The notes below the pieces were generated by a model. That model was not told where the DNA came from. It searched no databases and worked only from the letters and a program-made list of their open reading frames with translations. DNA of 64,000 nt from Antedon mediterranea (lineage: Eukaryota > Animalia > Echinodermata), in assembly GCF_964355755.1 (NCBI RefSeq), contig NC_092673.1:25848269-25912268 (forward strand). Direction: 5' to 3'. A program made the translations under genes and the position numbers. Shown here piece by piece: positions 56,401-57,481 of this stretch; the first letter of the stretch is position 1; each line of letters opens with the position of its first letter.

Positions 56401-57481
56401 TGAATATGTAATTTGTGGATGATAAATTTGGGACGATAACCTGAAAATTGTGGCTGGTATACTTAGCAAATGCTTTGTAGGCATTTTTTCTACAATACTC
56501 TGAAATCTGATAATACTAACCTGATATTTAGCTAAAAATTCATCTAATCCCGAAAAATCTGCGGAGTTTTCTGCCATTGTTGGCCATGATCCTGAAGGTA
56601 CTTGTGTTGCAAATAAATCCAGTATTTTGGTTAGTAACGTAAACGCCACACGGTTAGGGTACTCCCGCTAGACTGTCATTACGTATGTATGCGTGACATA
56701 AGTAATCTGTGAACAGACATATTTGCAAAGTTAAAAAAGCGCACAGTAAGCAAGTTTTTATGGTCATTTAAAGTGGTGTTGAGCCTTGTCTACACTATCA
56801 TACTTTATGTGACAAAAATATGTGATGTGTGTACCTATGGACATGATGATGTCGTTACACTACCACATTTGGACACATCACATTTTTTTGTCAAACTAGT
56901 TTTCTAATGTAGACAGAGCTTTACACTTTAATAATATACAGTACTACACTTGTGGAATCAAACAAGTGGAAAACACATGTTACTACGGGCAATATGTGTT
57001 ACTACTGCAACCATTATTCTGGGAATACCCCTATTAAGTAAGAAAAAACTTGTTTGGGTCTAGAATGTGTACAGTGGTTGTACTGTATAATGGAGTCTTT
57101 TATTTCATAAATAAAATTGATATGGGTTTTTTAAGACAAACCATAAGCTTTTTTTGATTGAATCTGAAAAAAAAATAATAAGTAAGGTTTGCATTTAATT
57201 ACTACTAACCTTGTTCTTTTACGGAGGTTCTGAGGCCAACTTGTGTTCTTTCAACAATAATCTGACTAGTGAATTGCATAAATTCTTGAACACTGCATGA
57301 ATGAATGTAGGAAAGTTAATGGTATAATTAGATAAGATATATAGTAGGTCATTGAAATTCAAAATGTATTTTGGTCTTACCTTTTTCGTTGGAAATATCC
57401 AAAGGATGAGAGATCGTAGGCTGCCTTTAATGACAGTACCTTCACACCCTTATATAGAATAGTTAAAGAATACAGACGCAT
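53498..57481 (-). CDS. YKT6: SNARE YKT6 (longin domain, R-SNARE, C-terminal CCVVQ prenylation box), 6 exons as drawn. One exon carries a frame disruption.
   Basis: complement(join(53498..53533,55329..55430,56087..56152,56521..56706,57210..57292,57381..57481)). The exons read [191 protein letters not shown]. They match human YKT6 along the whole protein. The exon at 56521-56706 is 186 nt where phase requires 2 mod 3. It lacks about 7 codons (GVVIADN of human) and switches frame at the GGG run (see findings). Confidence 0.75.
53616..55312. repeat. 21-bp tandem array (gttcaaatacaatgtatgtgt and the ttaaaatacaatgtatgtg subfamily), about 80 copies, inside the last intron of YKT6.
   Basis: There is strict 21-bp periodicity over 1.7 kb. 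It produces the artefactual ORFs MYVFKYNVCVQIQC. It lies between the YKT6 exons at 55329..55430 and 53498..53533. Confidence 0.9.
56781..56925. mobile_element. MITE copy in the YKT6 intron.
   Basis: It begins gccttgtctacactatcatac and ends ttctaatgtagacagagcttt. Confidence 0.75.

What the first reader, a model, noticed from the sequence alone, without database searches (positions are those of the whole stretch)
56521..56706. YKT6 longin-domain exon is missing about 7 codons and is out of frame at a G/C homopolymer
Upstream exons end in phase 1 (…SVKEQ + g) and downstream exons require phase 0. The exon must therefore be 2 mod 3, but the only acceptor (ttcacag at 56707-56708) gives 186 nt. Translation reads [16 protein letters not shown]-stop in one frame and [12 protein letters not shown]… in the +1 frame. 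The switch occurs at gcgggag (plus-strand ccc at 56664-56666). Human has GVVIADN between the two parts. Removing a single G restores an open frame of [22 protein letters not shown]. There are two explanations. One is a homopolymer sequencing or assembly error in an otherwise conserved gene, which would mean local base accuracy is suspect. The other is a genuine lesion, such as an ancestral 20-bp deletion, in a gene whose other exons, splice sites and CAAX box remain intact. Loss of the beta-strand LAGVVIAD would be structurally severe. If real, this makes the copy a young pseudogene or an unusual isoform.
Basis: partly seen in the sequence, partly recalled or inferred. Interest (0 to 1): 0.65.

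Follow-up and report, generated by a model that had tools for sequence, protein, structure and literature searches.

The report
20-bp deletion breaks feather-star YKT6
[quoted passage not shown] It is most likely a broken allele on one chromosome copy or an assembly slip, not new biology.

Summary
YKT6 lies on the minus strand in six exons. Exon 3 (56706-56521) is 186 nt where the frame needs 2 mod 3. The upstream frame stops at TAA 56656-56654.

Three neighbouring proteins (BUB3 and two FAHD1 copies) match Antedon mediterranea RefSeq proteins exactly, so the window is that assembly. The BUB3-YKT6 neighbourhood is shared with the crinoid Anneissia japonica.

DNA alignment to the Anneissia exon shows one clean 20-nt gap, which removes the residues VLIADH plus 2 nt. 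These residues are most of strand beta5 of the longin domain. A one-base homopolymer error cannot explain this.

No hidden exon exists, and no alternative splice keeps the domain. Everything else is intact:
- all splice sites;
- 116 downstream codons;
- the CCVVQ lipidation box;
- dN/dS of 0.07.

The lesion is therefore young, under about 0.05 neutral substitutions per site.

No A. mediterranea YKT6 protein appeared in the protein searches, although its neighbours are in that database. A fly allele truncated after residue 76 is lethal.

My ranking is a heterozygous null allele captured in the reference haplotype, then an assembly artefact, then a fixed pseudogene. Only reads can decide. The finding is ordinary.

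The parts
57381..57481 (-). YKT6 exon 1 (ATG at 57481; [33 protein letters not shown] + ag), donor gtaaga
57210..57292 (-). YKT6 exon 2 ([28 protein letters not shown] + g). It ends in phase 1. Donor gttagt.
56521..56706 (-). YKT6 exon 3, 186 nt. The orthologous Anneissia exon is 206 nt. This exon carries the 20-nt deletion.
56662..56668 (-). Deletion junction gcgg|gag. The 20 missing nt fall between 56665 and 56664 (give or take 1). Anneissia has GCTG[GTGTTTTGATCGCAGACCAT]GAATAT here.
56654..56656 (-). Premature stop TAA in the frame inherited from exon 2. The product would be 78 aa (...DSLAGVP*). The stop is 133 nt upstream of the exon 3 donor, with three exon junctions further downstream.
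56087..56152 (-). YKT6 exon 4 ([22 protein letters not shown]), intact, starts in phase 0
55329..55430 (-). YKT6 exon 5 ([34 protein letters not shown]), intact. It is the core of the SNARE motif and includes the RGEK arginine.
53498..53533 (-). YKT6 exon 6 ([11 protein letters not shown] + stop). The double-cysteine lipidation motif is intact.
38726..42581 (+). Neighbouring BUB3 gene, 6 exons, 326 aa, fully intact. It serves as the synteny anchor and identifies the species.

Best explanation
The window is the Antedon mediterranea (crinoid) reference assembly. The locus is the single, syntenic orthologue of the R-SNARE YKT6.

In the assembled haplotype, one 20-bp deletion in exon 3 does two things. 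It removes the codons for VLIADH, which form most of strand beta5 of the longin domain, and it shifts the frame. Translation therefore ends after 78 residues, before the rest of the longin domain, the SNARE motif and the CC-lipidation box. The mRNA would also be expected to be a target of nonsense-mediated decay. This is a null allele.

The rest of the gene is untouched, YKT6 is indispensable in other animals, and no second copy is seen. The deletion is therefore very recent. Most likely it is a heterozygous recessive loss-of-function allele of the sequenced individual that was written into the haploid reference, with an intact allele on the other chromosome.

Shown here: the deletion, its consequences for the frame and the fold, its youth, the orthology and the species. 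Inferred: that the deletion exists in the animal's DNA, that it is heterozygous, and that the mRNA is decayed.
For: - Deletion: there is a clean 20-nt gap against the Anneissia exon, and the conserved acceptor and flanks align without other gaps. All 15 homologues aligned carry the six residues.
- Orthology: the BUB3-YKT6 neighbourhood is shared with the Anneissia locus L001.
- Species and assembly: BUB3 equals XP_071946802.1, and the two FAHD1 copies equal XP_071946800.1 and XP_071947946.1. All are exact matches, and all sit on a 36.19-Mb contig.
- Youth: all ten splice sites are canonical. The 116 codons downstream are open in the true frame. dN/dS against Anneissia is 0.069 overall and 0.097 downstream of the lesion, with dS about 1.4. 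A rough neutral expectation of 46-73 disabling changes per substitution per site gives an age below about 0.04-0.07.
- Severity: in an AlphaFold model of Ptychodera YKT6, residues 74-81 (LAGVLIAD) form a strand at pLDDT around 93. The 78-aa product matches neither Pfam Longin nor Synaptobrevin. The Drosophila allele ykt6[G0155], which truncates after residue 76, is lethal early in development when homozygous (PMC5937789).
- No back-up copy seen: there is no second YKT6 in the window. No A. mediterranea YKT6 protein appears among the best 120 hits listed by either the full-length or the C-terminal search. The highest identity is 83% (Anneissia) and 74%, whereas a same-species protein would be near 100% identical. 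The species' RefSeq proteins for the neighbouring genes are in that database.
- Against an artefact: the region has no Ns. It holds a fully resolved 19-bp x 89-copy minisatellite. The exon is not repetitive. The other genes checked are undamaged.
Against: - No reads, alternate haplotype or transcripts could be examined, so the existence of the deletion in the animal and its zygosity are inferences.
- I could not establish the sequencing technology. A 20-bp consensus deletion is rare in accurate long-read assemblies, but it is not impossible.
- The protein searches list only the best 120 hits, and the short-query search missed Anneissia despite a 29-residue identical run. Absence of a same-species protein is therefore suggestive, not proof.
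- The absence of a RefSeq protein for this locus does not distinguish a real lesion from an artefact.
Confidence: 0.5

Rival explanations
1. Assembly or consensus artefact. The animal's DNA has the full 206-nt exon on both chromosomes, and 20 bases were lost during read correction, consensus calling or polishing.
For: - The gene is otherwise perfect and under strong constraint.
- YKT6 is essential.
- No other copy is visible.
- The closest reference genome shows that such damage happens: the Anneissia YKT6 model lacks exon 4, and a Nextera junction adapter sits in that intron.
Against: - A 20-nt loss in unique, non-repetitive coding sequence is not the typical error of any current platform. 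The GGG run could explain 1 nt at most.
- No repeats flank the site.
- BUB3, both FAHD1 copies and the other YKT6 exons show no indels.
- Long tandem arrays nearby are resolved without gaps.
Confidence: 0.3
2. Fixed, very young pseudogene. The species has lost this YKT6 copy, and the function is supplied by another copy (for example a retrogene) elsewhere in the genome.
For: - The frameshift and premature stop are real in the assembly.
- The protein searches show no protein from this locus, which would fit a pseudogene call by the annotators.
Against: - There is no sign of relaxed constraint and no second lesion.
- The locus is the syntenic orthologue.
- No other A. mediterranea YKT6 protein was found, although an intact paralogue would have been annotated and would have ranked at the top.
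Confidence: 0.06
3. A real in-frame 21-bp deletion (a protein lacking GVLIADH) combined with a one-base homopolymer error in GGG. Alternatively, an isoform rescued by alternative splicing.
For: - Deleting one G gives an open frame...[12 protein letters not shown]...
- Frame-preserving splice combinations do exist.
Against: - This needs two independent events where one suffices.
- The protein would lack a core beta-strand that is present in all homologues.
- The splice alternatives use weak sites (gga|gtaccc, or internal AGs) and drop 40-50 residues of the longin domain.
Confidence: 0.04

Closest known systems
YKT6 / synaptobrevin homolog YKT6 (longin R-SNARE; solved structures 6J74, 3KYQ, 1H8M)
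   Same: The conceptual protein matches human YKT6 chain 6j74_C at E = 9e-80 over its full length. It has the Pfam Longin and Synaptobrevin domains and a C-terminal CCVVQ. It is 83% identical to the crinoid orthologue and shares its gene neighbourhood.
   Different: It lacks six residues of strand beta5 and is out of frame, so the encoded product is a 78-residue stub.
Drosophila ykt6[G0155] truncation allele (PMC5937789)
   Same: It truncates the protein after about residue 76, within the longin domain, and behaves as a null. Homozygotes die early.
   Different: The fly allele is a P-element insertion that was studied experimentally. Here the cause is a 20-bp deletion, seen only in an assembly.
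Frameshifted conserved genes in reference assemblies (heterozygous loss-of-function alleles or consensus indels, which annotators flag as low-quality proteins or pseudogenes)
   Same: A single disabling indel in an otherwise constrained, single-copy, essential gene. No protein from the locus is in the database, although its neighbours have RefSeq proteins.
   Different: Nothing distinguishes this case from the general class. How the record actually annotates this locus could not be seen.
Anneissia japonica YKT6 model XP (P0018, 176 aa)
   Same: It is the orthologous crinoid gene and is also damaged in its assembly.
   Different: The damage there is a missing exon 4, next to a Nextera junction-adapter sequence in the scaffold, which is a clear artefact. 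Its exon 3 is intact.

Membership tests
YKT6 (longin R-SNARE) | N-terminal longin domain with a five-stranded sheet | tested here: not met
   Pfam Longin is still detected on the bridged conceptual protein (34.9 bits). However, strand beta5 (LAGVLIAD in the model) is largely deleted, and the real reading frame ends at residue 78. The 78-aa product has no Longin hit. The locus descends from a YKT6 gene but does not encode a complete one.
YKT6 (longin R-SNARE) | R-SNARE (synaptobrevin) motif with the conserved arginine | tested here: met
   At the DNA level, exons 4-5 encode PF00957 (58.3 bits), including the invariant RGEK.
YKT6 (longin R-SNARE) | C-terminal double-cysteine lipidation box (CCxxX) in place of a transmembrane helix | tested here: met
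   Exon 6 encodes ...NSCCVVQ*. The two cysteines are invariant in the alignments.
YKT6 (longin R-SNARE) | Orthology: best match and conserved neighbourhood | tested here: met
   The best matches are deuterostome YKT6 proteins, with Anneissia at 83%. BUB3 is adjacent in both crinoids.
Established (fixed) pseudogene | Disabling mutation | tested here: met
   A 20-nt deletion, a frameshift and a TAA stop at 56656-56654.
Established (fixed) pseudogene | Relaxed constraint or accumulation of further lesions | tested here: not met
   dN/dS is 0.07 overall and 0.10 downstream of the lesion. There are no further stops or indels, and all splice sites are intact.
Established (fixed) pseudogene | A functional copy elsewhere, or a dispensable function | tested here: inconclusive
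   No second copy lies in the window, and no other A. mediterranea YKT6 protein was found. The whole genome could not be searched. YKT6 loss is lethal in flies.
Established (fixed) pseudogene | Homozygous in the individual and fixed in the population | not testable with these tools
   This needs reads, the alternate haplotype or other individuals.
Homopolymer sequencing error | The discrepancy is limited to the length of a single-base run | tested here: not met
   The gap against the orthologue is 20 nt of complex sequence (GTGTTTTGATCGCAGACCAT in Anneissia), not 1 nt.

The most novel reading that the evidence does not exclude
Antedon mediterranea really lacks a functional canonical YKT6. In this reading the deletion is homozygous or fixed and no other copy exists. 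The animal would then live without a SNARE that is essential in yeast and flies, or with a longin-defective product made by unconventional splicing or translation.
Probability: 0.04. Interest if true: 0.6.

Novelty: already known. Interest (0 to 1): 0.15.

Why it matters
The value is mainly practical. Anyone using this crinoid reference (RefSeq A. mediterranea) for SNARE or trafficking gene inventories, BUSCO-style completeness checks or gene-loss analyses would wrongly score YKT6 as absent or pseudogenised.

The case also shows two things. A frame switch at a homopolymer may really be a larger deletion, and only comparison with a close orthologue reveals this. And the closest comparator, Anneissia, has its own artefact in the same gene.

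If reads confirm a heterozygous null, it is one example of the recessive lethal alleles that outbred marine invertebrates are thought to carry (my own background knowledge, not tested here). It does not open a new biological question.

Tried and rejected
- **Hidden exon for the missing segment.** I ran a degenerate DNA pattern, the Anneissia 20-mer with 3 mismatches, and a six-frame peptide motif scan over the whole window. None found anything.
- **Alternative splicing.** I enumerated all AG...GT exons between exons 2 and 4 that restore the frame. Only domain-destroying options exist.
- **Second copy in the window.** There is none.
- **Same-species protein or transcript fragments.**
  - The full-length, exon-3 and C-terminal searches gave nothing closer than Anneissia.
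  - The exon-3 search collected only 2 candidates and missed Anneissia, so it is a weak negative.
  - Ten guessed annotation products, intact-allele proteins and truncated forms were looked up exactly, and none is in the collection.
- **Assembly technology from the literature.** Four searches and reads gave nothing usable.
- **Local repeats as a cause of misassembly or slippage.** A MITE-like inverted repeat lies in intron 2 (56776-56926), but nothing is at the junction.
- **Microhomology.** A 4-nt GAGT microhomology is possible if the ancestral glycine codon was GGA. It cannot be shown, because Anneissia has GGT there.

Full report
**What is there.**
A tblastn of human YKT6 against the window, followed by direct reading of the sequence, gives a six-exon YKT6 gene on the minus strand:

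| Exon | Coordinates (minus strand) |
|---|---|
| e1 | 57481-57381 |
| e2 | 57292-57210 |
| e3 | 56706-56521 |
| e4 | 56152-56087 |
| e5 | 55430-55329 |
| e6 | 53533-53498 |

All introns have GT...AG ends. Exon 2 ends in phase 1 and exon 4 begins in phase 0, but exon 3 is 186 nt, so the spliced CDS is 574 nt (1 mod 3). Read from exon 2, the frame gives [17 protein letters not shown] and then TAA at 56656-56654. The frame that continues into exon 4 opens only after a TAG at 56670-56668 and reads [12 protein letters not shown]...AKYQ.

**Where the window comes from.**
The conceptual protein finds deuterostome YKT6 proteins. The closest is the crinoid Anneissia japonica at 83% identity, and hemichordates score 74-75%. 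I rebuilt three neighbouring genes by hand:
- BUB3 (38726-42581, plus strand, 326 aa) is exactly XP_071946802.1.
- Two tandem FAHD1 paralogues (213 aa each) are exactly XP_071946800.1 and XP_071947946.1.

All three are from Antedon mediterranea and lie on a 36.19-Mb sequence. The window is therefore the RefSeq-annotated A. mediterranea assembly. A tblastx against the Anneissia locus L001 shows that BUB3 and YKT6 are neighbours in both crinoids. This locus is thus the orthologue, not a stray copy.

**The nature of the lesion.**
The window's exon 3 aligns to the Anneissia exon (206 nt) with the same acceptor (TTCACAG|ATTAC) and no gaps on either side, except for a single 20-nt hole. Anneissia reads GCTG[GTGTTTTGATCGCAGACCAT]GAATATCC, and the window reads GCGG|GAGTACCC. 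The junction falls between 56665 and 56664.

All 15 homologues aligned have six residues here with a nearly invariant aspartate, so the deletion is derived in Antedon. The GGG run is only the edge of this deletion. Removing one G would still leave 7 codons missing, so a homopolymer miscount is not the explanation.

**No rescue.**
The missing segment is not encoded anywhere in the window. I enumerated every AG...GT exon between exons 2 and 4 that would restore the frame. The only options are a 44-nt exon with a weak donor (gga|gtaccc) or internal acceptors. Each of these discards 40-50 residues of the longin domain.

**Consequences.**
In an AlphaFold2 model of the full-length Ptychodera orthologue, residues 74-81 (LAGVLIAD) form the fifth beta-strand of the longin domain, in a region with pLDDT around 93. 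The deletion removes most of this strand.

The frameshift matters more. It ends translation at residue 78, and that product matches neither Pfam Longin nor Synaptobrevin. The stop lies 133 nt before the exon 3 donor, with three junctions further downstream. From general knowledge, such an mRNA would be expected to undergo nonsense-mediated decay.

A Drosophila allele that truncates Ykt6 after residue 76 is lethal early in development when homozygous. The same paper notes that the null is lethal in yeast (PMC5937789).

**Age.**
Apart from the deletion, the gene looks fully functional:
- all splice sites are canonical;
- the 116 downstream codons are open;
- the RGEK arginine and the CC box are present.

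Against Anneissia, dN/dS is 0.069 overall, 0.041 upstream and 0.097 downstream of the lesion. dS is saturated at about 1.4. BUB3 gives 0.021.

About 6% of possible point changes in the downstream CDS create stops. I assumed indel-to-substitution ratios of 0.05-0.15 and 12 splice-site bases. Under neutrality this gives 46-73 disabling events per substitution per site. Seeing none bounds the age at roughly 0.04-0.07 substitutions per site (this is a rough inference). That is a small fraction of the crinoid divergence and is compatible with a segregating allele.

**A second copy?**
There is none in the window. The full-length search and the C-terminal search returned no A. mediterranea YKT6 protein among the best 120 hits listed. 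A same-species protein would have ranked first. The neighbouring genes' RefSeq proteins are in the same collection. Ten guessed products of this locus are also absent.

This suggests two things: the annotation issued no protein for this locus, and no intact paralogue was annotated. The evidence has limits. Only the top 120 hits are listed, and the short-query search performed poorly.

**Interpretation.**
An essential, single-copy, strongly constrained gene with one very young null lesion leaves two serious explanations.
- A real heterozygous loss-of-function allele was captured in the haploid reference. I put this at about 0.5.
- Twenty bases were lost during assembly or consensus calling. I put this at about 0.3.

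I favour the first for four reasons. A 20-nt loss in unique, non-repetitive coding sequence is not a typical platform error. The site has no flanking repeats. The surrounding sequence is gap-free, with long minisatellites resolved. The other genes checked carry no indels. From my own background knowledge, outbred marine invertebrates are also thought to carry many recessive lethal alleles.

A fixed pseudogene with a back-up copy gets about 0.06. An in-frame deletion plus a 1-nt error, or a rescuing isoform, gets about 0.04. Only reads or the alternate haplotype can decide.

**Verdict.**
This is an ordinary kind of lesion in a well-known gene. It is useful as an annotation caveat but is not novel biology.

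Noticed in passing
L001:12171-12209 (Anneissia japonica VUNX01015869.1), intron between YKT6 exon 3 and the next exon: The Anneissia scaffold contains ctgtctcttatacacatct|agatgtgtataagagacag, which I recognise from memory as the Nextera mosaic-end junction adapter. It sits exactly where exon 4 ([22 protein letters not shown]) should be. The RefSeq-derived model P0018 (176 aa) lacks that exon. This is probably a mate-pair adapter artefact that removed an exon from the reference.
   Followed up: partly
window 53609-55307: A 19-bp minisatellite (ATGTGTTCAAATACAATGT, about 89 copies, 93% matches) fills most of the last YKT6 intron. It produces long spurious ORFs on the plus strand.
   Followed up: partly
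window 21616-23307 and 24473-25597 (+): Two tandem, three-exon FAHD1 (oxaloacetate tautomerase) paralogues, both intact and both exact matches to A. mediterranea RefSeq proteins. Each copy is followed on the minus strand by a similar peptide ([21 protein letters not shown], at 23383-23751 and 27878-28138). This suggests that the duplicated segment carried along one exon-like piece adjoining the major vault protein gene.
   Followed up: partly
window about 27900-35700 (-): Exons of a major vault protein gene (Pfam Vault and Vault_4 hits) lie between FAHD1 and BUB3. One intron holds a 59-bp x 26-copy tandem array at 32336-33862. The integrity of the gene was not checked.
   Followed up: no
window 36635-37131: A 21-bp tandem repeat (23.5 copies, 97% matches) that is open in several frames on both strands (PYRVRVK... 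and HPHPIRF...). It lies just upstream of BUB3 and looks non-coding.
   Followed up: no
window 43546-47485: About 4 kb of satellite with nested periods of 89, 285 and 374 bp, in the enlarged BUB3-YKT6 intergenic region. That region is 11 kb here and about 4 kb in Anneissia.
   Followed up: no
window 56776-56926 and 42243-42426: A MITE-like element with 21-29-nt inverted arms (TGACAAAAATATGTGATGTGT / ACACATCACATTTTTTTGTCA) sits in YKT6 intron 2, about 70 nt upstream of the exon 3 acceptor. Related sequence occurs as a 90-bp tandem pair in the last BUB3 intron.
   Followed up: partly
window 60928-61807 (+): Two cysteine-rich ORF pieces (CFDCEY...CYVN and CLEGC...CCNTTDCN, followed by a hydrophobic tail) that look to me like a Ly6/uPAR-type three-finger protein with a GPI signal. 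One piece is conserved upstream of YKT6 in Anneissia (L001 4634-4792). Neither has a Pfam hit.
   Followed up: no
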